The position numbers and the translations under genes are program-made. The notes beneath the pieces were generated by a model that saw only the letters and a program-made list of their open reading frames with translations, had not been told where the DNA came from and did not search any database. Of a DNA stretch of 64,000 bases, positions 2,119 through 56,251 are shown in pieces. Position 1 is the first letter of the stretch. Each line of letters starts with the position of its first letter. This DNA is from an uncultured Planctomycetota bacterium (lineage in GTDB: Bacteria > Planctomycetota > PLA2 > JAEUHO01). The stretch is from the NCBI GenBank assembly GCA_963752285.1, contig CAVVXN010000004.1:32001-96000 (forward strand), given 5' to 3'.

Positions 2119-3213
2119 CTACACGACCTCGCGCAGGACCGCGCCCGACGCGAAGCCCGCGCCGAACGCGACGTCCAGCTCCAGGCGCGGGCGCGGGAGC
2201 GCCCCGTTTCGCGACGCGAGGTCCGCGTACGCCAGCGGGATCGAGGCCGCGGACGTGTTCCCGTAGCGGACGATCCCGTCCGCGTACACGCGCCCGGAGG
2301 GGACGCCGAGCCGCTTCGCCACCCGCTCGATGATCCTCAGGTTCGCCTGGTGGGGGATCACGAGGTCCACGTCGCCGATCCCGTACCGGCGACCCGTCGC
2401 GGCCTCGGCCCGGTCGAGCACGGCACGGACCTCGAAGACCATCGCGTCCACCGCGGCCTGGAACACGCGCCGCCCGTCCATGCGCAGGACCTGGACCGCG
2501 CGCCGGCCGCGGCCGGGCCCGTCGAGCGGCCGCGGGCCGTCCGGTCCCGCCTCGGTGTAGAGGAGGTCGCCGTGTCGCCCGTCCGCGCCGGTGTGCGCGG
2601 CGAGGATCCCGCCCGCCGCCACGTCGCCGAGGACCACGGCGCCGGCTCCGTCCCCGAAGAGGACGCACGTGGAGCGGTCGGTCCAGTCGGCGATGTGCGA
2701 GAGCGCGTCGGCCCCGACCACGAGCGCCGCGCGGCCCTCACCGTAGCGGTGCCGCTCGAGCCACATACGGCTCCACACGTCCTCGATCGCGTACACGAAG
2801 CCCGCGCAGCCCGCCTCCACGTCCGCCGCGGCCGAGCCCGCGATCCCGAGGGCGCGCTGCACCTGCGACGCCAGGCTCGGGAGCCGGTTCCACGTGCACG
2901 TGGCCACCCGGACCTCGCCCACGTCCTTCGGAGCCACGCCCGCCGCCGCGAGCGCCTGGCGGGAGGCCTCGACCGCCATCCCGAGGATGCTCTCGTCCTC
3001 GCCGAGTACCCGGCGCGACCGGATGCCCGTGCGCCGGCGCACCCAGGCGTCGTCCGACGGCACGAAGCGCGCGAGGTCGGCGTTGCTCCAGGCCGTCGCC
3101 GGGAGGCAGGCGCCCGTGCCGAGGATGCCGATCCGGAACGCGCCGGCCGCGCCGCTGCGGGCGGGACGGGCGGGTCGGACCGCGACCCGGTCGCTCTTGC
3201 CCCGAGAGACCAT
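2119..3213 (-). CDS. fabH: 3-oxoacyl-ACP synthase III
   Basis: GILGTG, RTGIRSRR, AGCAGF (catalytic Cys), HQAN, GNTSAASIP, FGAG motifs; start at ATG 3213 chosen. Confidence 0.9.
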   Translation of the reverse strand: MVSRGKSDRVAVRPARPARSGAAGAFRIGILGTGACLPATAWSNADLARFVPSDDAWVRRRTGIRSRRVLGEDESILGMAVEASRQALAAAGVAPKDVGEVRVATCTWNRLPSLASQVQRALGIAGSAAADVEAGCAGFVYAIEDVWSRMWLERHRYGEGRAALVVGADALSHIADWTDRSTCVLFGDGAGAVVLGDVAAGGILAAHTGADGRHGDLLYTEAGPDGPRPLDGPGRGRRAVQVLRMDGRRVFQAAVDAMVFEVRAVLDRAEAATGRRYGIGDVDLVIPHQANLRIIERVAKRLGVPSGRVYADGIVRYGNTSAASIPLAYADLASRNGALPRPRLELDVAFGAGFASGAVLREVV

Positions 3214-3307
3214 GGGGGGATTCTCTCCGAAGGGGGGGCCACGAAGGCCGGCCCGGTCGCGACCGGACGCGTTCGGCCGACGCCCCCCCCGGGTAACCTC
3301 GGTCGGC

Positions 3308-4783
3308 GTGGAGCACCACCTGAGCACGCTCGGGGGCGCCTTGAACGTCCTCGTTCGCGAGGTCTTCGACGAGCTCGACCCGCAGCTCGAGGCCACGGCG
3401 CTCCTCGCCGCCCTCCCCGGGGACGAGGACGCGGGGCCCTCGTACCTGGTGACGTCCGGCGCGACGACGCGCGACCCCGAGGTCCTTCGCCCGCTCGCCG
3501 GCGCCGACGGGGCGGAGCCCGAAGGCGGGTCGGTGGTCCCGGGCGACGGGCCCGCGCGCGAGTGGGTCGCGGCCGACCGGCTGCGGCGCACGGTCGAGGA
3601 GGGGCTGCGGCGCGGCGAGGGTCCGGACGCGCTCCAGACGTTCGTCGGCGCGCCGCGCGGCCTCGGCCCGTACCTCGTCGCGCCCGCGCTCGAGCTCAAG
3701 GCCGGCATCTACCAGGCGTACTACGCGCTCCGCCGGCGGCAGGGCGAGGACGGGGCGCCGCTCGCGTCGTCGCTCCTCGACGCGGCGGTCACGGAAACGC
3801 TCCAGGCGGCCTCCGCGGCGATCTCCGACTACCGCCCGCGCGCCGACGAGTCCACCTCCGCGACCGCCGACGAGATCCTGCGCGCGGCGGGCCGCCGCCT
3901 CATGTGCGTTCCCGCGCACGCCGCGGGCTGCGTGGACGCGTCGCGGTTCTTCCAGGCGTGCGACCTGATCGCGAGCATGCGCTACGAGGGCGGCGAGGGC
4001 CACGGCCGCCTGATCGTCGCCGCGCGCGGCCACCCCGACGTCGAGGTCGTGCTGGAGTTCCACCAGCCGATCGACCTCGAGGACCGTCGCGGCGTGCGCA
4101 AGGTGCTCGAGCTCACCGGCGGCGACCTCTGCCTCCTGACGGACGCCGCGCGCGTGTTCGGGCTCGGGCGCACGACGGGTGCGTACGAGCGGCACGCGGA
4201 GAGCCTCTTCGAGGTCGAGGTGCTGGGGCACGCCACGTGGGAGCTCTCGCACGCCGATGCCGTCCTGATGCGGGTGCAGAACGGGCGCCCGCGCCTCGCG
4301 CGGAGCGAGATCGACGAGGACGAGTTTCGTGGGGGCCTCTCGCGGGCCTTCGGGCACGTCGAGCCGCGGCGCTTCGAGCGCCTGCTCGCGATCGCGATCC
4401 TGGCGATCCACCAGCGCCGCGGGACGACGGTGGTCGTGTCGGACGGCGCCCAGGCGGAGGCGCTCCGCCTCGGGAGCCAGGCCCTCAGGATCCGGCCCGT
4501 GCCGCTCTCGCCCGACACCGTCCCGCTCGTCACGGGCATCGACGGCGCCGTGCTCGTCGATCCCGAGGGCGTCTGCCACGCGATCGGCGTGATCCTCGAC
4601 GGCCGCGCGTCGCGCCGCGGCGACCCCGCCCGGGGCGCACGCTTCAACTCCGCCGTGCGGTACGTGGACGGGAGCGAGCACCGCGCGCTCGCCATCGTGA
4701 TCTCGGAGGAGGGCGGCGTGGACCTCATCGGTCCCGCCGTCGCGGCGCGGGCCCCGCCCGCCGCGAGCCCGGACACGGCGTGA
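3308..4783 (+). CDS. DisA_N/diadenylate-cyclase-like domain protein with long N-terminal (putative sensor) region
   Basis: C-terminal HQRRGTTVVV...IDGAVLVD...GVILDG...RGARFNSA...VISEEG pattern typical of divergent DAC domains; start uncertain (GTG 3308). Confidence 0.7.
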   Translation: MEHHLSTLGGALNVLVREVFDELDPQLEATALLAALPGDEDAGPSYLVTSGATTRDPEVLRPLAGADGAEPEGGSVVPGDGPAREWVAADRLRRTVEEGLRRGEGPDALQTFVGAPRGLGPYLVAPALELKAGIYQAYYALRRRQGEDGAPLASSLLDAAVTETLQAASAAISDYRPRADESTSATADEILRAAGRRLMCVPAHAAGCVDASRFFQACDLIASMRYEGGEGHGRLIVAARGHPDVEVVLEFHQPIDLEDRRGVRKVLELTGGDLCLLTDAARVFGLGRTTGAYERHAESLFEVEVLGHATWELSHADAVLMRVQNGRPRLARSEIDEDEFRGGLSRAFGHVEPRRFERLLAIAILAIHQRRGTTVVVSDGAQAEALRLGSQALRIRPVPLSPDTVPLVTGIDGAVLVDPEGVCHAIGVILDGRASRRGDPARGARFNSAVRYVDGSEHRALAIVISEEGGVDLIGPAVAARAPPAASPDTA

Positions 4784-6061: not shown

Positions 6062-6952
6062 ATGCTCCGCATCGTGAACGCCGATCCGGCCGATCCGTGC
6101 GATGTCGCCGCGGCGGCCCCCCGGGGGGACCCGACCGCGTGGGTGACCCACGTGGACACCCTCTTCGTCGTCGGCGCGCCCCGCAGCGGGACGACGTGGG
6201 TCCGGCGCCTGCTCCTCGACCTTCCGGGGGTCGTGGGCGGCGTCGAGTCCCACTTCTTCACCGCGCTCGGCCCGGCGCTCGTGAGCTACGACCTGACCGC
6301 GGCCTCCACACGTCGGATCGGACTCTCCCAGTACGTCCCGCGCGACGAGCTCGTGGGCGAGATCCGCCGGCTGTGGGGGCGCTGGATGGGCCCACTCGTG
6401 ACGGCCGCGCCGGACGCGCGCGTCCTCGTCGAGAAGACGCCCGGGCACGCGCTCCTCCTCGATCAGATCGTGGACGTCCTGCCCCGTTCGCGCTTCGTGC
6501 ACGTCGTTCGCGACGGACGGGCGGTCGTCGCGTCGCTCCTCGCGGCGGCCGAGGGGTGGGGGAAGGAGTGGGCGCCTCGTCGCACGCGGCACGCCGCGCG
6601 GCTCTGGGTGAAGCACGTCGAGGCCGCCCGCGCGGCGGGCGCCCGCCTCGGGCCCGAGCGGTATCTCGAGGTGCGCTACGAGTCGCTCCACGCCGACGCC
6701 GCGGCGCGGCTCCGGGAGATCGCGCGCTTCGCGGGGATCGAGGCCTCGGACGAGCAGGTCGCCCTGGCCGTCCGTCGCCACGACGCCGAGAACGTGCGCG
6801 CGGGGCAGGGGGGGGACGACTGGGCGGCCGAGCCGAAGGGGTTCCTCGGCGGGGCGACCCCGGAGGGCTGGCGTCGCCAGCTCACCTGGAGCCAGCGCGC
6901 GACCGTGTGGCGGCACGCGCGCCACGTGCTCCGGTCCCTGGGCTACCGGTGA
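6062..6952 (+). CDS. Sulfotransferase family protein
   Basis: PAPS-binding motifs GAPRSGTT, EKTP, RDGRAVVAS, RYE. Confidence 0.9.
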   Translation: MLRIVNADPADPCDVAAAAPRGDPTAWVTHVDTLFVVGAPRSGTTWVRRLLLDLPGVVGGVESHFFTALGPALVSYDLTAASTRRIGLSQYVPRDELVGEIRRLWGRWMGPLVTAAPDARVLVEKTPGHALLLDQIVDVLPRSRFVHVVRDGRAVVASLLAAAEGWGKEWAPRRTRHAARLWVKHVEAARAAGARLGPERYLEVRYESLHADAAARLREIARFAGIEASDEQVALAVRRHDAENVRAGQGGDDWAAEPKGFLGGATPEGWRRQLTWSQRATVWRHARHVLRSLGYR

Positions 6953-8757
6953 GCGCCGTGCCGAATCCCCGCGTCGGCGTTCCCAGACTCGTGCGTACCC
7001 GAATTCGCCTCGGCCTCCTCGTCGTCACCGGACTGCTCCTCGTTTCCGTGGACCTGTGGGCCGGGGACGAGCCCCCTTCGCCCGCGTCGCGGGTCTACGA
7101 CGTGGGCGCGCTCCTCGAGAGCCGGCCGGAAGGCGTGACGGGGCCGCTCGGGATCTTCCCGCGGGGCCAGGCGGCCGTGGAGCTGATCGACGAGGCGACG
7201 GGGACCGGGCTCTCGAACGGGGCCGTGCCGCCCGTCCCCTTCCTCGACGCGGCGACGCTCACCGAGCTCGTGCACACCTTCGTGACCGACCACGAGGGCT
7301 CGGCCTCGCTCGACGGGAGGTGGCTCCACGTCGAGGGACCGCCAGAGGTCCAGGCGCGCGCCGGGGCGTTCCTCGCCGGGCTCTGGCGTCTGGCGTCGCG
7401 GCGGGTGGACGTCGAAGCGGAGCTCCTCCGCGTGCCCGCGGAGGCGGTCGCGAAGCTCGACCCTGCGCTCCTCGCCGCCGTGCTCCGGGGGCGGCTCGAT
7501 CCCGACGAGGCGGCGGCGCTCCGCCGCGCCGCGAGCGCGCCGCGCCGCGGCACCGCCCGCGTGGCGCCGGGTCGCGTCGCGGTGGTCGGCGAGGTGGAAC
7601 GCGTCCGGTACGTCGCGGACTACAGCGTGGAGATCGCGCAGGCGTCGATCGTCGGGGACCCGGACGTCGAGGACCTCGATACCGGGTGGCGCGTCGAGGC
7701 GCGACCGCTTCCGCTCCTCGACGGGCGCGTGCTCTTGGAGGCCCACGTCGAGGCCGCGTCCCGCGACGGCCCGATGCGACGACTCGACCTCGGGGTCGCG
7801 CCCTTCGGAACGCTCGACATGCCGTCCTGCCGCGTCCTCCGCGCGTCGTGCCGCACGGTCACGGACGGCGTCGCGAGCCGCGTCCTCGCGCTCCGCGAGG
7901 CGTCCGGCGACCTGGTCGCGTTCCTCCTCCGCGCGACGCCGACGCCCGCCCCCGCCCCGACGACCGCGGGGTCCGCGCTGCCGTTCGATCGTCTGGACCT
8001 CCTCGCGCTCACGAGCGACCCGCGCGCGCTCGTCTTCGTGACCGTGCCCGACGACGGCTTCGCGCCGCGCCTCCTCTTGCGTGCGCCGGACCTCCTCGCG
8101 CCCGCGTCGGCGGACGGCCTCGCGTCGCGCCTCGAGGCGGCCGCGCCGGAGGCGTTCTCGGACGACGAGAGCGGCGTCGAGGCGCTGGGCGACGCCGTCT
8201 ACGTGCGCGGGAGCCCGGCGGCCCGCGCCGCGGCGCGCGCGCGCGCCCAGGAGCTCGAGGGGCGGGCGACGGGCGGCGCGCGGGTGACGCTCCGCCTCCG
8301 CGCCCGGAGCGCCGACGGCGCGCCCACGCTCCTCGCGGAGGCGGGCGCCGACCTCGCCGACGGGATCCCCGCGTCCCTCGTCCTCGGCCGCGAGCGCGCG
8401 TACCTCGCGGACTGGGACGTGGAGGTGGCGCAGGAGGCCCGGGTGGGCGACCCGATCGTGAAGACTCTCTTCGACGGCCTCGAGGTGGGCCTTCGCGCGA
8501 CCGCGACGCCGATCGAGGGAACGCACGCGCTGTCGCTCGAGCTGCGTTTCGTCACGGCATCGGACGCGCTCGCGGCCCGACCGACGGAGAACGAGTGCAC
8601 GGGCGACGTCGAGGTCCCCGACGCGCGGGAGGCGTTCGTCAGCGACGACCTCGTCCTGGAAGCGGGCCGGCCGACCGTGCGCGACGTAGGCACCCTCGCC
8701 GATGGCCGGCGACTGGAGCTCGAGATCGCGGTCACGCCGGAGCCGGAAGCACGTTGA
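6949..8757 (+). CDS. Secreted protein with two degenerate secretin-like (type II/III secretin C-terminal-like) domains
   Basis: Signal peptide; two internal repeats YVADYSVEIAQASIVGDP...GWRVEARP and YLADWDVEVAQEARVGDP...GLEVGLRAT; GTG start overlaps the upstream stop. Confidence 0.55.
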   Translation: MSAVPNPRVGVPRLVRTRIRLGLLVVTGLLLVSVDLWAGDEPPSPASRVYDVGALLESRPEGVTGPLGIFPRGQAAVELIDEATGTGLSNGAVPPVPFLDAATLTELVHTFVTDHEGSASLDGRWLHVEGPPEVQARAGAFLAGLWRLASRRVDVEAELLRVPAEAVAKLDPALLAAVLRGRLDPDEAAALRRAASAPRRGTARVAPGRVAVVGEVERVRYVADYSVEIAQASIVGDPDVEDLDTGWRVEARPLPLLDGRVLLEAHVEAASRDGPMRRLDLGVAPFGTLDMPSCRVLRASCRTVTDGVASRVLALREASGDLVAFLLRATPTPAPAPTTAGSALPFDRLDLLALTSDPRALVFVTVPDDGFAPRLLLRAPDLLAPASADGLASRLEAAAPEAFSDDESGVEALGDAVYVRGSPAARAAARARAQELEGRATGGARVTLRLRARSADGAPTLLAEAGADLADGIPASLVLGRERAYLADWDVEVAQEARVGDPIVKTLFDGLEVGLRATATPIEGTHALSLELRFVTASDALAARPTENECTGDVEVPDAREAFVSDDLVLEAGRPTVRDVGTLADGRRLELEIAVTPEPEAR

Positions 8758-10316
8758 CGCGCGGGCGCGCGATGGCGGGGATCTTCCTCCTCGGGGCGGG
8801 CTTCGCCCTCGGGCCGCGGACCCTGCGTGCCGACGACGCGCCCGACCTGGCCCCGTGGCGCACGCTCGCGAGCGAGCCGCTCGACGTGGACCTCGACGCC
8901 GGGGACCTCGCGGAACGGACGAGCCTCGGCTACGCGGAGGCGTTCGCCCCGCCCGACCCCCTCCGGGACCCGGACGGGAGCCGCGCGGCGTGGGCACGTC
9001 CCTTCGCGACCGCCGTCGAGGCCTGGATCGAGGACCGGGTCCCCGCGGTGGACGACGCGGCGCGCCGGCGTCTGGCAGCCGACCTCCTGACCCGGATCGA
9101 CGTGGACGTGGAGGTCGAGGGCGCCGGCGTCCGCTGGCGGGGGACCGCGTCGGCGGCGCCGGGCCACGGGGTGGCCCTCGCGACCACCACGCGGCGGGCC
9201 TTCGTGACCGACGTCGACCCGGAGCTCGCGTGCGACAACTCCGGCGGGTTCGCCCCGTCCGCGCTGGGGAATCCCGTGGTGCGTCCGCTCGAGGACGGTG
9301 TGCGGGTCTTCGTGTGCCCGCACCTCGTCGCGGGCGGCCGGGTCCTCTTGGAGGCCGTCGTGGCGGCCGGCCGCTTCGAGCGACCCGTCCCCGCCGTCCC
9401 GACGGAGGCGCGCTTCCTCGGCACGCTCGACCTCGCGCGTTACGAGGGCGCGCTCGCGCGGATGTCCGGGACCGTCGGTCCCCGCGAGGCGCTCGAGACG
9501 AGCTTCTCCGCGGGGGCGCGGCGCCTCGCCGTCCACGTGACGGCCCGCGTCCGCGCGCCGGATCCCGGTGTTCCCGACGGTCCGCTCCGCGCGCTCGACG
9601 CGAGCGCGCTGGCCGCCTCCCCCATGGACGCGGTCCTCCTCCCCGCGACCCGGGGAGGGCTCACGCCGCGGCCGGGGACGGTCTCGTGGGAGCCGACGCC
9701 GCCGGCATGGCCGCCGGAGCGGCTGCTCGCCGCGCTTCGGCGCGCGCTCCCGGACGCGGACCTGGAGGTCTCGGCGCGCGGCCGCGTGTTCGTCGCGGGC
9801 GACGAGGCGACGATCGGGCGCGCGCGCGCCGCGCTCGCGGCGTGGGAGTCCCCGATCCTCCGAGGCGCCACGGTGCGCCTCGCGCTGCGCGCGGGAGACG
9901 ACGTCGTGGGCCGGGGCACGCTCGCGGCGCGCTCGGGCGACGTGGCGGTTCTCCGTCTGGGCGCCGATCGCGCGGCGATCGTGGACAGCGACCCCGAGGT
10001 GGGGTGAAGCATCCATATCGCGGACCCCCGGGTCGGGGTCCTCTTCGACGGCTGGCGGATCGTCGCGCGTCCCGAGGTCGGGCCGGACGCGCGCACGGTC
10101 CGCCTCGGGCTCGACGTCGAGCGACGCGCGATCCGGGCGGTGGAGACGCGGCGCGGGAACGGCGCGGCGCACGGCGTCCTCCACCTCCCGGACGAACGAG
10201 TCCTCTCCCGGCGCGCGGACGCGGTGCTCGCCCGAGACGACGTCCTCTCGTTGGAGCTCGGTTCGGACGAGGAGGGGCGTCCCCTCCGTCTCGAGGTCCG
10301 CGCGGGAGTCCGCTGA
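8754..10316 (+). CDS. Paralogous secretin-like protein with in-frame TGA at 10005-10007 (candidate selenocysteine)
   Basis: The frame stays open for 102 codons after the TGA (SIHIADPRVGVLFDGWRIVARPEVGPDARTVRLGLDVE...GRPLRLEVRAGVR*) and completes the second repeat; SECIS-like hairpin at 10022-10041. Confidence 0.65.
10022..10041 (+). promoter_or_regulatory. Putative bacterial SECIS hairpin
   Basis: GGACCCC-CGGGTC-GGGGTCC, 7-bp stem starting 14 nt after the TGA. Confidence 0.55.
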
Positions 10317-10420
10317 GCCCGAGCGGCGTCGCGCGGCGCGTCCGTTCGCCTCGCCTCGCGCCGGCCCGTGGCACCGGCGCCGCGAGGTACCATCCCCCGA
10401 CCTCGCGAGGTGACGAGCGG

Positions 10421-11341
10421 ATGGCCGACCCCGAACGACCCAGCCCGGAGGACGAGCCGTGGGATCCCACGCGCACGGTCCGCATGCGGCCGGAGCGCCC
10501 GAGCGCGCCTCGTCGGGCCCGCGGCTCGCTGATCGTGATCCACGGCGGGGGACACGACCTCGGGCTCCACGCCGTGGTCGAGAGCGAGCTCGTCGTGGGG
10601 CGCGCGCCCGAGGCGGGCCTCCGGCTCCAGGACCTCGGCGTCTCGTGGCGCCACCTCCGGGTGCGGCGCGGCGCGGGCGAGGGCTACCTCGTCGAGGATC
10701 TCGGCTCCACGAACGGGACGCGGCTCGGCGACGACGACCTCCACGAGGCGCGCCCGCTCGCCGACGGGGACAAGATCTTCGTGGGGCAGACCGTCCTCCG
10801 GTTCGACCTGGCCGACGACCTGGACCTCGGCTACCAGACCGAGGTGGCGGAGATCGTGGGGACGGACCCGCTGACCGGGCTCGAGTCGAAACGCCGCTTC
10901 GACGACGCCCTCGCGAACGCGACCGACCTCGCGCGCCGCTCGAAGCACGACGTCGCCGTCCTGATGATGGACATGGACGGCGTGAAGCGGATCAACGACA
11001 CCCACGGCCACTTCTTTGGAGCGCACGCGATCGGCGAGACCGGACGACTGATCGCCGGGGTGCTCGGCGCCGCGGGACAGGCGTGCCGGTTCGGCGGCGA
11101 CGAGTTCTGCGCCTTCCTGGCGCCGTCCGACCTCCCGTCCGCCTGCGCCGTGGCGGAGCAGATCCGCACGACCCTGGAGGCGGCGGTGATCCAGAAGGAG
11201 GGGATCCGCCTCGCGCCGACGATCAGCATCGGCGTCGCCGCCGGGCCGACGGGGAACGAGGGCCCGGAGGACCTCGTCGCGCGCGCCGACGCCGCGCTGT
11301 ACCGCGCGAAGCGCGCCGGGAAGAACCGCGTCTCGGTCTGA
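10421..11341 (+). CDS. FHA-domain diguanylate cyclase
   Basis: FHA motifs GR, VSWRH, DLGSTNGT; GGDEF domain with DPLTG, DMDGVKRINDTHGH, RFGGDEF. Confidence 0.92.
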   Translation: MADPERPSPEDEPWDPTRTVRMRPERPSAPRRARGSLIVIHGGGHDLGLHAVVESELVVGRAPEAGLRLQDLGVSWRHLRVRRGAGEGYLVEDLGSTNGTRLGDDDLHEARPLADGDKIFVGQTVLRFDLADDLDLGYQTEVAEIVGTDPLTGLESKRRFDDALANATDLARRSKHDVAVLMMDMDGVKRINDTHGHFFGAHAIGETGRLIAGVLGAAGQACRFGGDEFCAFLAPSDLPSACAVAEQIRTTLEAAVIQKEGIRLAPTISIGVAAGPTGNEGPEDLVARADAALYRAKRAGKNRVSV

Positions 11342-11355
11342 CGACGCGCTCCCCG

Positions 11356-12048
11356 TCACTCCTTCTTGATGTCGGCGGCGAGCTCCTGCAGCCGCTGGCG
11401 CGCGCCGAGGAGCAGCATCGTGTCGCCCGCGGCGAACCGCGTGTCCGGCGGGGGCGCGACGAGCACGTCCTTCGGCTCGCCCTGGCCGGTGCTCCGCTTG
11501 ATCGCGATCACGTAGATGCCGTAGCGCGCGCGGATCTGGAGCTCGGTGAGCGTGCGACCCAGGTACTCGTCGGGCGCGGGGAGCTCCACGATCGCCTCGC
11601 TCGGCCCGAGCAGGATCTGCTCCACCAGGTCGGGCGTGAGCAGGCGCTGCACCGTACGGTCGGCCGTGTCGCTCTCGGGGAAGACCACCAGATCGACGCC
11701 GATCAGCTTGAGCGCCTCGGCCTTCTCGTCGGTGTCCACCTGCGCGACGATCCGCTTCACCTTCGTCTTGAGCCGGACGTGGTAGGCGAGGAGGACGGCG
11801 GCGTCGAACGCGCTCCGGAACGCGATGACGACCGTGTCCACGTCGAAGGCGCCGACGTGCTGCATCACGTCGAGGTCCGTGGCGTCGGCCTGGATGGCCT
11901 TCGTCACGCGCTGCGAGATCTTCTGGATGAGGCGCTCGTCCTTGTCCACCGCGACCACGCGCGCGCCGCGTTCGAACAGGCCCACGGCGGTGCGGAAGCC
12001 GAACTTGGAGAGCCCGAGGATCGCGAAGGTCTCGTGGGTCGTGGGCAT
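11356..12048 (-). CDS. ktrA: KtrA/TrkA-family K+ uptake regulatory subunit (RCK_N + RCK_C)
   Basis: FAILGLSKFG Rossmann motif, DATD, VVFPE, RCK_C GRTLTEL.IRARYGIYVIAIKR. Confidence 0.88.
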   Translation of the reverse strand: MPTTHETFAILGLSKFGFRTAVGLFERGARVVAVDKDERLIQKISQRVTKAIQADATDLDVMQHVGAFDVDTVVIAFRSAFDAAVLLAYHVRLKTKVKRIVAQVDTDEKAEALKLIGVDLVVFPESDTADRTVQRLLTPDLVEQILLGPSEAIVELPAPDEYLGRTLTELQIRARYGIYVIAIKRSTGQGEPKDVLVAPPPDTRFAAGDTMLLLGARQRLQELAADIKKE

Positions 12049-15451: not shown

Positions 15452-15763
15452 GTGTCCCAGAACAGGCTCTACGTGGGGAATCTCCCCTTTTCTTGCACCG
15501 AGGCTGAGCTGGAGGAGGCGTTCGCCGCCCACGGCTCCGTGCGCGCGGTCAACATCGTCACCGATCGAGAGACGGGCCGCCCCCGCGGCTTCGCCTTCGT
15601 CGAGATGGCGACCGACGCCGAGGCCGAGGCCGCGATCCAGGCCCTCGACGGCCAGGATTTCGGCGGGCGGAACCTCAAGGTGAACGTCGCCCGGCCCCGC
15701 GAGGGCGGTGGCGGCGGCCGCGGGGGCGGCGGCGGCTACGGCGGCCGACGCGACCGCTGGTAG
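15452..15763 (+). CDS. RRM-domain RNA-binding protein with Gly-rich tail
   Basis: RNP2 LYVGNL, RNP1 [18 protein letters not shown] tail. Confidence 0.95.
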
Positions 15764-22046: not shown

Positions 22047-22124
22047 TGGTCGGGGCGACTGGATTCGAACCAGCGACCTCCTGAACCCCATTCAGGCGCG
22101 CTACCAAATCTGCGCCACGCCCCG
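22047..22124 (-). tRNA. tRNA-Pro (GGG)
   Basis: CGGGGCGTGGCGCAGATTTGGTAGCGCGCCTGAATGGGGTTCAGGAGGTCGCTGGTTCGAATCCAGTCGCCCCGACCA; full cloverleaf, GGG anticodon, encoded CCA. Confidence 0.97.
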
Positions 22125-22297
22125 ACGCAGGGGGGAGAGCATACGCGGGCGGGCCAGGGGGAGAGCCGTTTGGATCGACCGGGGGGTGGACGGCGGCGCG
22201 TGCGCGTTCGCGCCCGGGCTTGCCTCCGGGGCGGGGCCCCACGTACCCTCGTCCGCGCGCCAGAGACCAGCGGTGCGGCAGGCCTGGGAGGCGACGA

Positions 22298-23668
<1,371 letters not shown>

Positions 23669-23943: not shown

Positions 23944-26043
23944 ATGCGCGTCCCGTTCCTCTCGTCGTCGATCGCGTGCGTCCTCGCGTCGCTCTTCCTC
24001 TCGCTCGGCGCCGCCGAGGCGTTCGCGCACGGCGGTCAGTTCCGCGGACCCGGCGACGGGGTCCCACCGAACCTCAGGGCGCCCACGGACCCGACGCCGC
24101 CTCCGCCGCCGACCCCGAGCGGCGGGCCGACGCCGACAAGCGGTCCCTCGCCCACGCCCGTCACGCCGCCGACGGGGCCGACCGCTCCGACCACCACGCC
24201 CCCCGTCGGGACGCCGAGCCTGCCCTCGACTCCGGGGCGACGCACGACCCCCGTCACGCCCGACGACTGGCGCTTCTGGTACCACCAGAACAAGGATCAG
24301 CTCGAGAACCTGAAGCGCGCCATCTACGGGCTCCACGCGAGCGGCGGGGGGATCTTCCAGCACGGCGGAGAGGCCCCCACGAACCAGGATGCCGCGACGC
24401 GCCTCACGCAGCGGAAGGTGGTCGAGATGATCGTCCCGACGCTGCTCTGGGCGATGGATCCCACGCACGGCCTCGACGACGACACGCGCTCCGGCGCCTA
24501 CCTCGCGCTCGCGAAGGTGACGCGGGACGTCGCGCACGTGGACCTGATCGCGGCGGCGATCGATCGGGAGAAGAAGCAGCCCGTGCTGGTGAGCGGCTCC
24601 GCGGCGCTGGCCCTGGGGATGCTCCGCCGCGAGCGCCCCGAGGACCAGCTCCCCGCGAAGGACGTCGATCGCGCACGCGAGATCCTGTTCCAAAGCTTCG
24701 AGGACGACGAGCAGCCGACCCGCGTGCGGGCCTTCGCAGCCGCGGCGATCGGCCTGCTCGGCGACCAGCCGACGGGATCGGGCGCCTACGCGGGCGACCG
24801 TGCGGCGGCGGCGCACGCGACCACGAAACACCTCTTCGACCTCCTCGATCGCCCGTGGCCCGACGCCGACCTGTCGATCTCGCTGGCTCTCGCCGTCGGC
24901 CTCCAGCCGCCCGCCTCCCTGGACGCTTCCGAGCTCGACGTCCTCACGCGGATCGCGGTGCTCGGGCGGCTGTCGAGCCGCCGCCTCGGCGAGCTCGAGC
25001 GTGCGTACGCCGCCCTGGCCCTCGGTCGGATCGGCACGTCCGCCCAGATCCCCGTGCTCTCGAACCTGGTGGTCGCGCGCCGCGGCGTGAGCGACTCCGT
25101 GCGGCGGAGTGCGACGATCGGCCTCGGGCTCCTCGCGCGGCACACGGACGGGTCGGGGCGCGTCGAGCTCGCGAGGACCCTCGTCCACGCGATCGATCGG
25201 ACCCGCGACCCGACCACCCGCGACTTCGCGCTGATCAGCCTGGCGCACGTGCTCGTCGCCGAGGTCGGTGCGGGATCGACCGACGTTCTCGAGGGCACGA
25301 AGGCCACGGAGACCCTGCTCGCGCGCTCCGACCGGCGCGCGTCCATCGAACAGCCCTTCGCGTCGCTCGCGTTGGGCCTGGTCGCCGGGGCGGTGCCGGA
25401 CGAGCTCGAGGTAGACGCCTGGCAGGCCCTCCGTGAGCGCACGGTCCAGTCGCTCCGACTCGGTCTCGCCGACCGGAGCCGCGGTCCCCGGGCCCGCGCA
25501 GCCTGCGCCACCGCGCTCGGCATCGCGCGGGACCGGGGCAGCGTGAAGACGCTCGTCGAGGTGCTCGGTGGACGCGACGACGACCCCGAGCTCCGCGCGT
25601 ACGCGGGGCTCGCGATCGGGCTGATCGGCGTTCCGGCCAACGAGGCCGTACGGGCGCTCGGCGAGGCCGTACGCGAGCGGTCGTCCGAGGTGCTGCGCCG
25701 TGAGTGCGCGGTCGGGCTCGGGCTGCTCGGGAACCCCGCGATCCCCGGCACGAATCAAAACGCGCTCGACCTGCTCCTCCACGAGCTCGAGAACGCGCGG
25801 ACCGAGGCGCACAAGGCCGAGGTCGTGACCGCGATCGCGCGCATCGGCGACCACCGCGCCGTGGACCGCCTCGTGGCGCTCCTTCGAGACCCGCACGAGC
25901 AGGACGCGACGCGTGCGATGGCCTGCGTGGGGCTGGGGCAGATCGGGGACCTCGAGTGGATCCCGTCGCTGGCCCGCCTCACCAAGGACCACAACTACCG
26001 CGCGTCCACCGACTTCGTACGGGAGCTGATGAGCGTCCTCTGA
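23944..26043 (+). CDS. Secreted HEAT-repeat protein with Pro/Thr-rich linker
   Basis: Signal peptide then HGGQFRGPGD; PT-rich stretch; repeated AALALG/AAIGLLG HEAT-like units; AAGGAG RBS. Confidence 0.8.
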   Translation: MRVPFLSSSIACVLASLFLSLGAAEAFAHGGQFRGPGDGVPPNLRAPTDPTPPPPPTPSGGPTPTSGPSPTPVTPPTGPTAPTTTPPVGTPSLPSTPGRRTTPVTPDDWRFWYHQNKDQLENLKRAIYGLHASGGGIFQHGGEAPTNQDAATRLTQRKVVEMIVPTLLWAMDPTHGLDDDTRSGAYLALAKVTRDVAHVDLIAAAIDREKKQPVLVSGSAALALGMLRRERPEDQLPAKDVDRAREILFQSFEDDEQPTRVRAFAAAAIGLLGDQPTGSGAYAGDRAAAAHATTKHLFDLLDRPWPDADLSISLALAVGLQPPASLDASELDVLTRIAVLGRLSSRRLGELERAYAALALGRIGTSAQIPVLSNLVVARRGVSDSVRRSATIGLGLLARHTDGSGRVELARTLVHAIDRTRDPTTRDFALISLAHVLVAEVGAGSTDVLEGTKATETLLARSDRRASIEQPFASLALGLVAGAVPDELEVDAWQALRERTVQSLRLGLADRSRGPRARAACATALGIARDRGSVKTLVEVLGGRDDDPELRAYAGLAIGLIGVPANEAVRALGEAVRERSSEVLRRECAVGLGLLGNPAIPGTNQNALDLLLHELENARTEAHKAEVVTAIARIGDHRAVDRLVALLRDPHEQDATRAMACVGLGQIGDLEWIPSLARLTKDHNYRASTDFVRELMSVL

Positions 26044-26358
26044 CGGCGCCCCGACCGCCGTCACCGACCCCGTTCGTCCGGTCTCAAGGGAGAATGCGTG
26101 GAAACCTCGTAGACGGGGGACGGGAACCGGAGTTCCCGAACTCCTCCAGACCGTTCCCACCGCCGAAGTGCCGGTGACCACACGACTTGCGGCGACTCTC
26201 CACCGACTCTCCACCCTGAGGGCGGGAATGCGGGTTCCCGACCCCCGGTCGTACGCATTGTGGAGCCGCGGGCCGAAGGCCCCGTCCGGACGCCGCAAGT
26301 CCTTGCCGCCCAACGCCCGCATCCCCGCCCGTGGGTTCTCGTCGGCGTGGAGACTGAC

Positions 26359-26373
26359 TGGCCCGGCGCTTGC
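26359..26373 (+). promoter_or_regulatory. Sigma-54 -24/-12 promoter of the putative large ncRNA
   Basis: TGGCCCG-GCGC-TTGC matches TGGCACG-N4-TTGC with exact spacing; predicts a TSS near 26385. Confidence 0.65.
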
Positions 26374-26385
26374 CTTCCCTCTCTC

Positions 26386-27550
26386 GCCCCCAATGAGGGG
26401 CAGACGCTCTGTGAAAGACAAGCACTGACGAACGGACGACGTGTTCAGTCGAGCACCGAGGGACGGTGGCGCCGGGTCGCGAGCCTAGGAACCGCGACTG
26501 CATCACCGCCGAGGGGGCAAAGAGCGCAGTCGGGATCGCCTGTCAAGCGATCGCCTGCGCGAGGCGAAGCCATGAGCCCGCCCCCCGGCGTGATGAACGG
26601 AGCGCCACGACGGTCGAAAGGTGCGAAATCCCAGGAGAGCCGGCAGCCCGGAAACGGGCCAGGCCGACCCATCCGATCCGCAAAGCCCTGAGGTCCAAGC
26701 AGGTAGGGACGTCACCCTGCCCGAGGGCGAGAGGGCCGGCCCCGCGACTACAAGCGGGCGCCCGGACGGATGGGGGGAACGCTCTGGAGGGACGAAGCCC
26801 AGGAAGGCATCGTCGGTCGGGCGGCTTCGGCCGTCCGACGACAGCACGGACTCGCCGCGGGAAGGAAGCCTTGAAGGCGACCGCGCGTTCCTCGGTCTCC
26901 CCCGGGAGACCTGGAGCCGCGGGAACGTCAGGAGGGCAGGGGCCCCGAGAGGGGTACCGACCGTGGGCGAGGGGAAAGCCTTGGAGGGCGAAGCCCGAGG
27001 ACGCTCCGGCGCTTCGGCGCCGGGAGGATCGGTGGTTTCAGGCCGCGAGGGGGGTAGCCAAACCCCGGACGCGGCACGCGGCGGCGGGGGGACCCGCCGT
27101 CATCCCCAGCGGATCCGCCGGTCCGGCATGTGTCGTAGGGCAAGAGAAGCTCAGGAGAGGCAGCACTGCGTGACAGGTTCCGCGCCGGCTTCGGCCGGCG
27201 GGCGGGGACGACGCGGTGCGGGGCTCGGAGGGCACGTCTCTGAAGGGGCGCGAAAGCGCAAGGAGGGCCTCCGGCGACCTCGGTCACCGGATGGCCGCGA
27301 GGATGAACTCCCCGATGGGCGTCGAAACGCCGTACGGGGTGGGCGGAACCCATGACCGCCCGTGGCCTCGCGGTCCGCGTCCTCGGAGCGCCACGAAACC
27401 CCACGAGAGGCAGCCGAGGCAACGTGTTCACGAGGCGCTCGGCAACCTTCCCAGCCCTCACTCCTCTGGAGGGCCCGATCGACGCTCGAATGCGAACTCC
27501 CTCGTCAGGCTTTGTTGAGCCCGGGGTGTGGGCAACCACGCCCCGGGCTC
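26386..27550 (+). ncRNA. Putative large (~1.17 kb) highly structured non-coding RNA, family not recognised
   Basis: No credible ORF; 5'/3' long-range helix; three cUUCGg and several GNRA hairpins; recurring GAAxCxCAGGAGAG and AAGCyyTGrAGG motifs; bounded by a sigma-54 promoter and a terminal hairpin. Confidence 0.7.
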
Positions 27551-27560
27551 TCTCCATTTC
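27517..27560 (+). terminator. Terminal 15-bp hairpin, probable intrinsic terminator
   Basis: GAGCCCGGGGTGTGG-GCAA-CCACGCCCCGGGCTC followed by TCTCCATTTC. Confidence 0.6.
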
Positions 27561-27628
27561 CAGGGCGCGGACCGCCGGTGTGGACCGCGCGTCGCACGTC
27601 TCTGGGGCCGCCCACGGGCCGGCCCCGG

Positions 27629-28642
27629 CTACAGCAGGTCCTCGGCCTCGTCCTTCGGGCCGCGCAGCATCAGCGAGCGCACGACCTCCTTCGGCGGCTT
27701 CCCTTCGTGGACCGCGTAGTAGACCTGCTCCGAGATCGGGAGCGCGAGTCCGTGCTCGTGCATCAGCTCGTGCACGGGCCGCGACGTCTTGATGCCCTCC
27801 GCGACCATGCTGGTGCTCGCCGCGATGTCCTCGGCGCGCTCGCCGCGCCCGAGGCGTTCGCCGAACGTGCGATTGCGGCTCGCGCGCGAGTAGCACGTCG
27901 TCAGGAGGTCCCCGAGCCCGGACATGCCGAAGAAGGTCCTTCGCCGTCCACCGAGGCGCTCGCCGAGGCGGGCCATCTCCACGACCCCGCGCTGCACCAG
28001 CGCCGCCTTCGCGTTCTCGCCGAGCTTCAGCCCGTCGCACATGCCGGCGGCGATCGCGATGACGTTCTTCAGCACGCCGCCGAGCTCCACGCCGAGGACG
28101 TCGGAGTTCGAGTAGACGCGGAAGCGCTCGCCCGCGAAGGTGTGCTGGACCCCACGGAGCACGGCGGCGTCCGGGCACGCGACGACCGTGGCCGCGGGAA
28201 GTCCGTGCGCGATCTCGCGGGCGATGTTGGGACCCGACAGGACCGCGATCGGCCGCCCGCCCGCGAGCTCCTCGAGGATCTGCGTCGGCCGCTTGAGCGT
28301 GCCGTCCTCGAGACCCTTCGTCACCGAGACGATGGGGACGCCCGGCGGGAGCACGCGCGCGTGCGCGGACCACACCTCACGGAGGTACGTCGTGGGGACC
28401 GCCGAGACGATGAGGTCCACGCCTTCGAGGACCTCCTCGAGCCGACTCGAGACCGCGATCGACCGCGGGATCTCGAAGCCCGGGAGGTACCGCGGGTTCG
28501 TTCGCGTCTCGGCCATGTGCGTGGCGTACTCGGGGTCGTACCCCCACAGCGCCACCCGCTCGACGCGGCTCGCGAGGTACGTCGCGAGCGCCGTGCCCCA
28601 GCCCCCGTCACCCACGACCACGACGCTTCGAGCCTGGTCCAT
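27629..28642 (-). CDS. gpsA: NAD(P)H-dependent glycerol-3-phosphate dehydrogenase
   Basis: GDGGWGTALA, TKGLE, LSGPN.A.E, LKNVIAIAAG, GLGDL..TC, SRNR, AEG. Confidence 0.95.
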   Translation of the reverse strand: MDQARSVVVVGDGGWGTALATYLASRVERVALWGYDPEYATHMAETRTNPRYLPGFEIPRSIAVSSRLEEVLEGVDLIVSAVPTTYLREVWSAHARVLPPGVPIVSVTKGLEDGTLKRPTQILEELAGGRPIAVLSGPNIAREIAHGLPAATVVACPDAAVLRGVQHTFAGERFRVYSNSDVLGVELGGVLKNVIAIAAGMCDGLKLGENAKAALVQRGVVEMARLGERLGGRRRTFFGMSGLGDLLTTCYSRASRNRTFGERLGRGERAEDIAASTSMVAEGIKTSRPVHELMHEHGLALPISEQVYYAVHEGKPPKEVVRSLMLRGPKDEAEDLL

Positions 28643-28755
28643 CCTGCCTCCGGGGGCCACCGGCCCGCCCACGCCGGGATTGTGCCCCGAAACCAGGCGG
28701 GCTCGCCGGGTCCGTAGACTGACCGCCTCGCCTTCGTGTCGATCGGGAGGTCCGG

Positions 28756-47370: not shown

Positions 47371-53717
<6,347 letters not shown>

Positions 53718-56144: not shown

Positions 56145-56159
56145 AGGCACGCACCTTGC
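56145..56159 (+). promoter_or_regulatory. Candidate sigma-54 -24/-12 promoter
   Basis: AGGCACG-CACC-TTGC about 90 nt upstream of the Cys-rich repeat gene. Confidence 0.55.
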
Positions 56160-56251
56160 GGTTGCCGGCCGACCGCATCGGCGCCGAGCGTAGTCGTTGG
56201 GCCGGGGAGCGTTCCGATGCCGCATCCTCCCGGCGTGCTGGAGCGTGAATC

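What the first reader, a model, noticed from the sequence alone, without database searches (positions are those of the whole stretch)
26359..27560. Candidate ~1.2 kb sigma-54-transcribed, highly structured non-coding RNA
Seen in sequence: the 1.6 kb between the HEAT gene and gpsA has no ORF with recognisable motifs or typical codon usage. A canonical -24/-12 element (TGGCCCG-GCGC-TTGC, 26359-26373) predicts a start near 26385, where a hairpin GCCCC-CAATGA-GGGGC begins. The two ends pair in nested order across ~1.08 kb: CTGACGA 26425-31 with TCGTCAG 27502-08, GTTC 26443-46 with GAAC 27494-97, TCGAGC 26449-54 with GCTCGA 27484-89. Inside are three cUUCGg hairpins (26816-39, 27006-23, 27183-200), GNRA hairpins (GAAA 26651 and 27252, GAGA 26947), a medium-range helix CCCATCCG/CGGATGGG, and a 15-bp GCAA-capped terminal hairpin (27517-50). 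The tetraloops read correctly on the + strand, matching the promoter. Established: UUCG/GNRA enrichment and end-closing helices are hallmarks of large functional RNAs (RNase P, group I/II introns, OLE, GOLLD, ROOL, HEARO). I could not find the signature motifs of RNase P, tmRNA, rRNA or group II intron domain V. Inference: a large, independently transcribed RNA, possibly an undescribed class.
Basis: partly seen in the sequence, partly recalled or inferred. Interest (0 to 1): 0.92.

Follow-up and report, generated by a model that had tools for sequence, protein, structure and literature searches.

The report
Conserved kilobase structured RNA gene
The 1.6 kb gap between two genes of this Planctomycetota genome holds a gene for a large folded RNA of about 1.13 kb that makes no protein, is conserved in many environmental sequences and matches no catalogued RNA family, so it looks like a new class of large bacterial RNA.

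Summary
Window 26044-27628 has no coding signal in any frame. Stable UUCG/GNRA hairpins are enriched about 16-fold on the + strand only: 7 observed against 0.44 in shuffles, reached by 0 of 1000. No Rfam 15 family matches.

New evidence came from translating a junk + strand ORF and searching protein libraries. This found more than 50 "hypothetical proteins" from other (meta)genomes. They align to the window only by hopping between its three + frames (50 of 51), so conservation is at the nucleotide level. Codon positions 1 and 2 inferred from those translations show covariation in the predicted helices. 23 of 103 informative pairs covary on both sides, against 2-9 in slid controls. G.U outnumbers A.C 125 to 17.

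The conserved unit is about 26421-27554. 19 of 25 homologues lie on contigs of 1064-1193 nt. One reads from 27554 straight into 26421, which suggests a discrete, abundant and possibly circular RNA.

A -24/-12 element, two exact upstream dyads and a nearby sigma-54 activator gene fit sigma-54 control, which is not proven. Function is unknown. Homologue DNA could not be fetched.

The parts
22220..23668 (+). Gene for a sigma-54 enhancer-binding protein: an unassigned N-terminal domain of about 155 aa, an AAA+ sigma-54 interaction domain and a Fis-type HTH. Candidate activator of the RNA promoter.
   Evidence: Pfam Sigma54_activat 5e-69, AAA_lid_14 and HTH_8. All NCBIfam equivalogs fall below their cut-offs. 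The N-terminal 187 aa have no Pfam match up to E = 1. The link to the RNA is inferred from proximity only.
26122..26137 (.). Dyad GGGAACCGGAGTTCCC, candidate upstream activator site 1. Its centre lies about 255 nt upstream of the predicted start.
   Evidence: One of only two matches to GGGAA-N6-TTCCC in the 64 kb window, both exact. Binding is inferred.
26224..26239 (.). Dyad GGGAATGCGGGTTCCC, candidate upstream activator site 2. It lies 102 bp from site 1 and about 153 nt upstream of the predicted start.
   Evidence: The two sites also appear as direct repeat D3 and inverted repeat I1.
26359..26373 (+). Sigma-54-type -24/-12 element TGGCCCGGCGCTTGC. It predicts a start near 26385.
   Evidence: 2 matches in the window against 0.86 expected, so not significant alone. 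Its position downstream of the two dyads and near an activator gene supports it. No sigma-70-like promoter was found in 25900-27800.
26385..26420 (+). Predicted 5' leader with hairpin 26386-26401. It lies outside the unit bounded by the head-to-tail junction seen in one homologue.
   Evidence: Hairpin P 0.97. No homologous ORF matches 26200-26420 credibly. Removal of the leader is inferred.
26421..27554 (+). Conserved RNA unit of 1134 nt.
   Evidence: 51 homologous ORFs align within it across all three + frames. 76.4% of 13,397 inferred nucleotides are identical to the window. The boundaries come from the junction 27554|26421 in P0138. Purine skew is on the + strand. 300-nt folding z-scores are -3.3 to -4.3 at 26600-27299 on the + strand.
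26425..26457 (+). 5' strand of the long-range end-closing helices. It pairs with 27479-27508.
   Evidence: P 0.87-0.99 in the ensemble. In P0138, 24 of 25 pairs are compatible, against 15-19 of 25 when slid, with one U-A to C-G double change at 26445/27489. Only one homologue is informative, and the duplex energy is not exceptional against genomic pairs.
27479..27508 (+). 3' strand of the end-closing helices.
26665..26777 (+). Domain closed by CCCAUCCG/CGGAUGGG. It holds three inner helices: 26685-89/26732-36, 26693-96/26725-28 with 26700-08/26715-23, and 26738-45/26754-62.
   Evidence: Closing helix: 96% of 85 cells paired. 26742-26757 reads TA18 CG3. 26688-26733 reads CG13 TA4. 26694-26727 reads CG11 TA7.
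26816..26839 (+). 10 bp hairpin with a cUUCGg loop. It has the best covariation of any helix.
   Evidence: 75 cells, 92% paired. Of 38 cells changed on both sides, 34 still pair (26817-26838 CG19 TA4; 26823-26832 TA8 GC4 CG2).
26993..27389 (+). Central and 3' domain closed by the 10 bp helix 26995-27004/27377-27386. It contains the UUCG hairpin 27005-27024, the arm 27026-35/27115-24 with hairpins 27042-75 and 27080-27101, the arm 27163-71/27211-19 with UUCG hairpin 27184-99, and the hairpins at 27311-38 and 27341-61.
   Evidence: 26993-27004/27377-89: 93% of 28 cells paired, and 3 of 3 double changes pair. 27028-27122 reads GC5 AT4. 27081-27100 reads AT2 GC2. 27163-71/27211-19: 6 of 6 double changes pair.
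27517..27550 (+). 15 bp GCAA-capped hairpin followed by UCUCCAUUUCC. Probably the intrinsic terminator and the 3' end of the unit.
   Evidence: P 1.00. It is conserved in P0138 with 13 of 13 informative pairs compatible, including U-A to U.G. In P0154 the residues after the hairpin read F-V-F, a T-rich tract (inference). The tool's terminator rule of at least 5 T in 8 is not met.

Best explanation
Window 26421-27554 (+ strand) is the gene of a roughly 1.13 kb, highly structured, non-coding RNA. It belongs to a conserved family that is absent from Rfam 15 and is mis-annotated in public databases as hypothetical proteins.

Shown: it is non-coding, conserved at the nucleotide level, folded on the + strand, and many of its helices covary.

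Inferred:
- Transcription starts near 26385 from a sigma-54 -24/-12 promoter. The promoter is activated by the enhancer-binding protein encoded 2.7 kb upstream, bound to two GGGAA-N6-TTCCC dyads.
- Transcription stops at the 15 bp GCAA hairpin (27517-27550).
- The 36-nt leader is trimmed. A long-range helix clamps the two ends, which protects the RNA and may allow the ends to be joined.
- The compact RNA accumulates as a discrete, abundant particle. It acts in trans as a structural or scaffolding RNA in the manner of OLE, ROOL or GOLLD. Its conserved purine-rich internal strands would be contact sites for a partner or for self-assembly.

The cellular role is not known.
For: Non-coding:
- No codon periodicity or codon-usage signal.
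- No Pfam match.
- The ESM Atlas recognition score is 819, in the range of shuffled sequences.

Not a known RNA: nothing at Rfam gathering scores, and only sub-threshold junk hits up to E = 10.

Conserved:
- 43 representatives at E <= 1e-3, of which 13 are <= 1e-10.
- Further hits.
- 50 of 51 homologues need frame switches to align. Real scores are 318-742, against 78-173 for reversed proteins, the minus strand or unrelated DNA.

Structured:
- 7 UUCG/GNRA hairpins against 0.44 expected, reached by 0 of 1000 shuffles.
- Folding z-scores of -3.3 to -4.3.
- 85.8% of 1147 cells are canonical, against 34-46% in slid controls.
- 121 compensatory cells, against 79.4 +/- 4.0 in 500 permutations with a maximum of 90.
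- 23 of 103 pairs covary on both sides, against 2-9 of 94-116 in eight slid controls.

Strand: G.U 125 against A.C 17, plus purine skew.

Discrete molecule: 19 of 25 homologous entries have a longest contig of 1064-1193 nt, and only 3 exceed 1.3 kb, across 68 contig sightings.

Promoter context.
Against: - No homologue DNA was seen. Nucleotides were inferred from translations, so about a third of positions are unknown and alignments are weak in variable hairpins.
- The tested structure was derived from the window itself, which favours it over the slid controls.
- Three minimum-free-energy helices are contradicted: 26791-99/26806-14 (50% paired), 26629-44/26844-62 and 27102-05/27111-14.
- The -24/-12 match is not significant alone, and the dyad count is not either, with 29 of 100 shuffles reaching 2. 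The start site is unknown.
- The terminator scan called nothing.
- The end duplex is unexceptional against genomic pairs.
- None of the 60 related Planctomycetota loci holds a copy or shares synteny.
- Whether the roughly 1.1 kb contigs come from RNA or DNA libraries is unknown.
- No partner protein or function is indicated by the neighbourhood.
Confidence: 0.75

Rival explanations
1. The same RNA is excised from its primary transcript and covalently circularised. The closing helix brings 26421 and 27554 together for a ligase, and the circle is the stable, abundant form. This extends the best explanation rather than excluding it.
For: - One homologous ORF (P0138, on a 1256-nt contig) reads from the 3' part straight into the 5' part. 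Residues 51-109 match 27380-27554 (E 5e-10) and residues 110-148 match 26421-26537 (E 2.6e-16), with no gap between them.
- The unit of 1134 nt matches the contig lengths.
- 1256 nt equals the unit plus about 120 nt. This resembles circular contigs recovered with a terminal overlap, as described for IMG metatranscriptomes (passages of 10.1101/2022.07.19.500677).
- No homologue matches the window's flanks.
Against: - Only 1 of 57 ORFs crosses the junction.
- A head-to-tail tandem DNA duplication would give the same picture.
- No self-cleaving ribozyme was found, and no ligase such as RtcB is in the window.
- P0154 shows a linear genomic context after the hairpin.
- The contig sequences were not seen.
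Confidence: 0.3
2. It is a protein-sequestering sponge RNA, like CsrB/RsmZ or the sigma-54-dependent CrcZ. Its repeated GGAG(A/G)G or GGA motifs would titrate an RNA-binding regulator.
For: - GGAG[AG]G occurs 8 times against 3.4 expected, with 15 of 1000 shuffles reaching 8. Seven of the 8 sites are at least 83% conserved.
- A sigma-54 promoter with a nearby activator gene recalls cbrB-crcZ (recalled, not tested).
Against: - GGA is not enriched (38 against 37.6), and AGGA is not either, with 144 of 1000 shuffles reaching the count.
- The hairpin loops are UUCG/GNRA rather than GGA.
- The one hairpin presenting CAGGAA in its loop (26791-26814) is not conserved (50% paired, and 1 of 30 double changes pairs).
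- No csrA-like gene is in the window.
- The extensive covarying architecture exceeds what a sponge needs.
Confidence: 0.1
3. It is a selfish or extrachromosomal roughly 1.1 kb element: a tandem DNA repeat, a small replicon, a mobile non-autonomous element, or a viroid/Obelisk-like RNA with a DNA copy. On this reading it is not a host gene.
For: Unit-length contigs and one head-to-tail junction. The size is close to the roughly 1 kb of Obelisks (abstracts listed).
Against: - The window holds a single copy with no repeat elsewhere, in an ordinary chromosomal setting with its own promoter-like and terminator-like signals.
- The complementary segments are internal rather than terminal inverted repeats, and no target duplication is visible in the sequence.
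- The fold is branched, not rod-like.
- No ribozyme was found, and no credible ORF.
- Homologues differ by 30-50% at the translated level, as expected for vertical divergence.
- There is no match in plasmids or phages.
Confidence: 0.07
4. It is a protein-coding gene of unusual composition, or a decayed pseudogene.
For: A gene caller predicted the 235-aa ORF at 26466-27173, which is on record as P0167. Homologous ORFs are on record as hypothetical proteins.
Against: - No coding signal.
- Conservation continues across frame switches in 50 of 51 homologues.
- ORF ends and lengths vary from 68 to 400 aa.
- No Pfam match.
- Covariation of stems and the G.U asymmetry are not expected of a pseudogene.
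Confidence: 0.02

Closest known systems
Large ornate bacterial ncRNAs: OLE, GOLLD, ROOL (Rfam families; cryo-EM in PMC12286853, of which I saw only the abstract in the listing)
   Same: A long non-coding RNA with many covarying helices capped by GNRA/UUCG loops. It is independently transcribed, its function is unknown and it is probably abundant.
   Different: No match to their covariance models. It is longer, at about 1.13 kb against roughly 580-800 nt (sizes recalled). It is found in Planctomycetota. It has sigma-54-type promoter signals and one head-to-tail junction. No associated protein gene such as oapA is evident (recalled).
CrcZ of Pseudomonas, and other sigma-54-dependent ncRNAs (Qrr, GlmY, Pxr); recalled, no call
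   Same: A non-coding RNA gene behind a -24/-12 promoter, with the gene of a sigma-54 activator close by.
   Different: Those RNAs are 100-400 nt and work through short single-stranded motifs or base-pairing. This one is a 1.13 kb multi-domain fold with no enriched binding motif comparable to the CA or GGA motifs.
DucS, a linear and circular dual-form ncRNA of Bacillus altitudinis (PMC10504365; abstract seen in the listing)
   Same: A chromosomally encoded bacterial ncRNA that may exist as a circle.
   Different: There is no sequence relation and this RNA is much larger. Circularity here rests on one database ORF.
Archaeal circular pre-rRNA intermediates with processing stems (abstracts in the listing)
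   Same: A long-range helix joins the 5' and 3' flanks of a large structured RNA next to the joining site.
   Different: Those depend on the bulge-helix-bulge motif and the archaeal splicing endonuclease. This is a bacterium, no such motif was examined, and the RNA is not ribosomal.
Obelisks and viroid-like circular RNAs of about 1 kb (abstracts in the listing; passages of 10.1101/2022.07.19.500677)
   Same: A roughly 1.1 kb unit that recurs as unit-length contigs, with one circular-looking junction.
   Different: It is DNA-encoded in a chromosome. The fold is branched, not rod-like. There is no Oblin-like ORF and no known ribozyme.

Membership tests
Any Rfam 15 family (RNase P, tmRNA, rRNA, group I/II introns, OLE, GOLLD, ROOL, HEARO, raiA, self-cleaving ribozymes) | Score at or above the family's gathering threshold against its covariance model | tested here: not met
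   At gathering scores, the only hit in the whole window is a tRNA at 22050-22124. With E up to 10 on 25900-27800 there are 5 sub-threshold hits (snoRNA, miRNA and lncRNA models), mostly to the terminal hairpin.
Large structured ('ornate') non-coding RNA, as a kind | No protein-coding potential | tested here: met
   Conservation crosses frames in 50 of 51 homologues.
Large structured ('ornate') non-coding RNA, as a kind | Conserved secondary structure supported by covariation | tested here: met
   using nucleotides inferred from translated homologues. A test on true nucleotide alignments (R-scape) was not possible.
Large structured ('ornate') non-coding RNA, as a kind | Expressed as a discrete RNA | tested here: inconclusive
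   19 of 25 homologous entries lie on contigs of 1064-1193 nt. This fits a transcript-sized molecule, but the library type of those contigs is unknown.
Sigma-54-dependent promoter | GG-N10-GC core (TGGCAC-N5-TTGC-like) at -24/-12 | tested here: met
   TGGCCCGGCGCTTGC at 26359-26373. The match count is not above chance.
Sigma-54-dependent promoter | Enhancer-binding protein and upstream activator sites | tested here: inconclusive
   An activator gene lies at 22220-23668. Two exact dyads lie 153 and 255 nt upstream of the predicted start. Cognate binding was not tested.
Sigma-54-dependent promoter | Mapped start site and dependence on rpoN | not testable with these tools
   Needs 5' RACE or dRNA-seq and mutants.
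CsrB/RsmZ-type sponge RNA | Many GGA motifs, enriched and presented in hairpin loops | tested here: not met
   GGA occurs 38 times against 37.6 expected. The loops are UUCG/GNRA. The CAGGAA-loop hairpin is not conserved.
Covalently closed circular RNA | Head-to-tail junction of the unit | tested here: inconclusive
   1 of 57 homologous ORFs (P0138) crosses 27554|26421. A tandem DNA repeat is not excluded.
Viroid-like or Obelisk replicon | No DNA template; rod-like fold or ribozymes; Oblin ORF for Obelisks | tested here: not met
   A chromosomal DNA copy is present here. The fold is branched. No ribozyme was found. No protein-like ORF was found.
MITE or IS-type mobile element | Terminal inverted repeats at the extreme ends, target-site duplication, multiple copies | tested here: not met
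   The complementary segments are internal at the 3' side (27479-27508, against the unit end at 27554). There is no second copy in the window or in the 60 loci.
Intrinsic terminator | GC-rich hairpin followed by a U tract | tested here: inconclusive
   A 15 bp hairpin is followed by TCTCCATTTCC.

The most novel reading that the evidence does not exclude
A chromosomally encoded, sigma-54-induced RNA of about 1.13 kb is cut out of its primary transcript, clamped by a long-range helix and covalently circularised. It accumulates to very high levels in environmental Planctomycetota. That would make it the first kilobase-sized, ornate, circular non-coding RNA class in bacteria, hidden in databases as dozens of 'hypothetical proteins' on unit-length contigs.
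Probability: 0.3. Interest if true: 0.95.

Novelty: new variant of a known kind. Interest (0 to 1): 0.86.

Why it matters
Only a handful of bacterial non-coding RNAs longer than 500 nt are known. The recent structures of OLE, ROOL and GOLLD showed unexpected RNA-only assemblies. A further class would give structural and RNA biologists a new object with a defined promoter, boundaries and partial helix map. This one is larger than any of those three and conserved across many environmental lineages. It appears abundant, may be regulated by sigma-54 and may be circular.

The work also shows that such RNAs can be found in protein databases. Their spurious ORFs recur in shifting frames, and covariation can be tested from those translations when DNA is out of reach. 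It also flags a set of mis-annotated hypothetical proteins.

Tried and rejected
- Synteny route. The 60 loci returned are paralogous or non-syntenic: no gpsA or DLH, and one distant activator. They hold no copy of the RNA. nhmmer found nothing up to E = 10, and blastn found only matches of 42 nt or less. Their regions downstream of the HEAT genes lack the purine skew and hairpin density.\n- Internal duplication. Only short motifs repeat, so there is no usable paralogous alignment.\n- CsrA-sponge idea. GGA is not enriched.\n- Group II intron domain V reading of the 34-nt terminal hairpin. I rejected it by inspection because the stem has no bulge and nothing follows it. There is also no Rfam intron hit.\n- RtcR/RtcB link. 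The activator is not an RtcR equivalog (312 bits against a 650 cut-off), and no RtcB is in the window.\n- De novo search for extra covarying stacks. It was uninformative because every third position is unknown.\n- ESM Atlas. No usable hit.\n- Plasmid and phage collections. No match.\n- First whole-length shuffle test. Six full-text searches (listings and abstracts only) and passages of one preprint turned up no description of this RNA.
Full report
WHAT IS THERE

The window is high-GC DNA of about 72% GC. Its HEAT-repeat protein finds only Planctomycetota metagenome-assembled genomes as relatives, the best at 48-51% identity.

Between that gene (stop at 26043, + strand) and the convergent gpsA (27629-28672, - strand) lie 1585 nt. 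The flanking genes have GC3 above 0.9. In the gap all three phases sit at 0.60-0.85. A codon-usage log-odds model trained on 18 genes of the window stays negative in all six frames from 26030 to 27560. It is the longest stretch without codon periodicity in the window. The + strand is purine-rich, with AT skew up to 0.46 and GC skew up to 0.20. Four ORFs from the region have no Pfam match.

Stable four-base-loop hairpins with UUCG or GNRA loops and stems of at least 5 bp number 7 on the + strand of 26385-27560 (3 UUCG, 4 GNRA). Dinucleotide shuffles give 0.44 +/- 0.66, and 0 of 1000 reach 7. The - strand has 1.

No other kilobase reaches this density across both strands of the window and of 60 related loci (about 1.4 Mb). 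The background there is 0.39 per kb per strand, and the next best kilobase has 5.

Folding z-scores of 300-nt windows are -3.3 to -4.3 on the + strand at 26600-27299. They are weaker on the - strand and in the flanks (25 shuffles each, so rough).

The ensemble places the end-closing helix CUGACGA/UCGUCAG at P 0.99. As a duplex, however, the two ends are no better than random genomic segment pairs at the same spacing, 554 of 1000 of which reach the same energy.

Rfam 15 gives nothing at gathering scores except a tRNA elsewhere in the window. In the region it gives only sub-threshold junk up to E = 10.

HOMOLOGUES FOUND THROUGH SPURIOUS ORFS

It returned 60 loci that proved non-syntenic and held no copy of the RNA.

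I then translated the junk + strand ORF at 26621-27355 (P0122) and searched 1.84 billion protein representatives. This gave 43 hits at E <= 1e-3, of which 13 were <= 1e-10, the best at 61% identity. The overlapping ORF in another frame (26466-27173, P0121) is itself on record as a predicted protein of the source contig (P0167). It has 3 further relatives. A second search with P0122 in the 90%-clustered library gave 14 hits.

In a plain protein alignment the relatives visibly jump between the window's frames.

A frameshift-aware protein-to-DNA alignment of my own placed all 51 ORFs on 26219-27681 at 47-70% identity. 50 of the 51 needed at least one frame switch, and many breakpoints recur. The stretch 26219-26420 comes only from P0138's N-terminal part, which the one-directional alignment misplaced. 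That part matches 27237-27554, so the other ORFs start at 26458 or later.

Ten ORFs were re-scored as controls. They scored 318-742 against 78-173 for reversed proteins, the minus strand and unrelated DNA.

Conservation that runs on across frame changes is nucleotide-level conservation. This is not a protein, and the public entries are mis-annotations. The ESM Atlas recognition score of 819 is in the range of shuffled sequences.

COVARIATION WITHOUT DNA

Each aligned residue fixes codon positions 1 and 2, except for Leu, Arg and Ser. That gave 13,397 determined nucleotides, 76.4% identical to the window.

I tested the 273 of 394 minimum-free-energy pairs that have ensemble probability above 0.8.
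- 1147 informative cells are 85.8% canonical. With the 3' partner slid by 1-3 nt the figure is 34-46%.
- Cells changed on both sides are more frequent (181) and 67% of them still pair, against 38-48% in slid controls.
- In 500 column permutations the paired fraction was 0.810 +/- 0.005 (maximum 0.826). Compensatory cells numbered 79.4 +/- 4.0 (maximum 90), against 121 observed.
- Counting pairs rather than cells, 23 of 103 informative pairs show two canonical types that differ on both sides. In eight slid controls the figure is 2-9 of 94-116. With each type seen at least twice it is 11 against 0-3.
- G.U-type cells outnumber A.C-type cells 125 to 17, which fixes the RNA on the + strand.

Well-supported helices include:
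- the first UUCG hairpin (34 of 38 double changes pair);
- CCCAUCCG/CGGAUGGG and its three inner helices;
- 27026-35/27115-24;
- 27042-47/27070-75;
- 27080-88/27093-101;
- 27163-71/27211-19;
- the 390-nt-range helix 26993-27004/27377-89.

Three minimum-free-energy helices are contradicted. These are 26791-99/26806-14, 26629-44/26844-62 and 27102-05/27111-14. The model is therefore partial.

Limits of the method: a third of positions are unknown, variable hairpins align poorly, the sequences are related to one another, and the structure came from the window itself.

BOUNDARIES AND FORM OF THE MOLECULE

No homologue matches 26200-26420 or 27555-27760 credibly.

Of the 25 homologous entries whose contig lengths were reported:
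- 19 have a longest contig of 1064-1193 nt;
- two have 975-983 nt;
- one has 1256 nt;
- three are longer, at 2410, 2638 and 13,802 nt.

Several identical ORFs were seen on 5-12 separate contigs, none longer than 1.2 kb. A single-copy chromosomal locus would not give such uniform lengths. A discrete molecule of about 1.1 kb would, most simply an abundant transcript assembled from RNA libraries. I could not see what kind of library the contigs came from.

One ORF (P0138, 1256-nt contig) reads through the 3' part, the closing-helix 3' strand and the GCAA hairpin. At the next residue it continues with the 5' closing strand and the 5' domain. Residue 109 maps to 27554 and residue 110 to 26421. In window coordinates the unit is 1134 nt.

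This is the signature of a circle or of a head-to-tail tandem. It is one observation among 57 ORFs. Another homologue (P0154, 2410-nt contig) continues after the hairpin into unrelated sequence that begins with a T-rich tract. That is what a linear gene with an intrinsic terminator would show.

In P0138 the closing helices stay compatible at 24 of 25 pairs, against 15-19 of 25 when slid, with one U-A to C-G exchange.

TRANSCRIPTION SIGNALS

TGGCCCGGCGCTTGC fits the sigma-54 core. Two matches in 64 kb is not above chance.

What adds weight is the context.
- A gene for a sigma-54 enhancer-binding protein lies two genes upstream.
- The only two matches to GGGAA-N6-TTCCC in the window are both exact and lie 102 bp apart. 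Their centres are about 153 and 255 nt upstream of the predicted start.

This is the classical layout of an activator-dependent promoter. Binding and the start site remain inferences.

The predicted start (about 26385) lies 36 nt before the unit boundary, which implies a trimmed leader. No sigma-70-like promoter was found.

FUNCTION

Nothing in the neighbourhood points to a partner.

The sponge idea fails its simplest test, since GGA is not enriched. GGAG(A/G)G is moderately enriched and well conserved. The architecture consists of long capped helices joined by conserved purine-rich strands, with clamped ends. That is the architecture of compact tertiary-folded RNAs.

I therefore commit to a trans-acting structural RNA particle, induced through sigma-54 and stabilised by end-clamping or circularisation. 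I mark everything beyond "conserved, structured, non-coding, + strand" as inferred.

COMPARISON AND NOVELTY

It works most like the large ornate RNAs (OLE, ROOL, GOLLD). It is not a member of any of them by the covariance-model test.

Its regulatory layout recalls CrcZ and other sigma-54-dependent RNAs (recalled). Its possible circle recalls DucS and archaeal circular pre-rRNA (abstracts). It fails the defining features of viroid-like or Obelisk replicons, mobile elements and protein genes.

Six full-text searches found no description of it. I saw only listings and abstracts, plus passages of one preprint.

NOT DONE

No homologue DNA was seen.

Noticed in passing
window 55928-55942 (- strand): Second TGGC-N7-TTGC match (TGGCCCGGACGTTGC), sharing TGGCCCGG with the RNA promoter. 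It lies about 425 nt upstream of a hybrid histidine kinase/response regulator gene (53578-55503, -) in a 1.2 kb stretch without codon periodicity (55261-56490). It has no GGGAA-N6-TTCCC dyad nearby.
   Followed up: partly
window 26466-27173 (+): This junk ORF inside the RNA gene is on record in the protein collection as a predicted protein of the source contig (P0167, 235 aa). Dozens of homologous entries are labelled hypothetical protein. This is systematic mis-annotation of an RNA gene.
   Followed up: yes
window 22050-22124 (- strand): tRNA gene (59 bits). It overlaps the longest possible start of the sigma-54 activator ORF (22085), so the true start is probably at or after 22220.
   Followed up: partly
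L001, L003, L005 (one MAG); L013, L018 (one MAG); L011, L022 (one contig, about 12 kb apart): The 700-aa HEAT-repeat protein family has several paralogues per genome in Planctomycetota. It has a conserved proline-rich N-terminus and 41 invariant columns in 33 sequences. Its function is unknown.
   Followed up: no
L019 1908-1946; L010 7257-8188 (-); L020 8068-8963 (-): A weak 42-nt blastn match (E 0.002) lies just downstream of a HEAT homologue. Modest clusters of 4 UUCG/GNRA hairpins lie on the minus strand downstream of two other HEAT homologues. I did not establish whether these are unrelated small structured elements or chance.
   Followed up: no
window 50374, 51204, 51481 (+ coordinates): The identical 16-mer TGGCCGCCGAGCTTGC occurs three times, within overlapping ORF calls on the - strand (47371-51120 and 51060-53717). 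Pfam finds HAMP repeats in those ORFs, 7 stretches in 51060-53717. The 16-mers probably reflect repeated HAMP modules.
   Followed up: no
window 15452-15763 (+): Small RRM-type RNA-binding protein (103 aa, RRM_1 2e-25) about 11 kb from the RNA gene. There is no evidence of a link.
   Followed up: no
window 2894-4783 (+): Diadenylate cyclase-like protein with DACNG and DACNH sensor domains, a candidate for c-di-AMP signalling.
   Followed up: no
window 6097-11359: Three long ORFs (886, 661 and 639 aa, on both strands and partly overlapping) have GC3 of only 0.81-0.85 and no Pfam match. Gene content here is unclear, and five UUCG hairpins lie on the + strand between 2342 and 14312.
   Followed up: no
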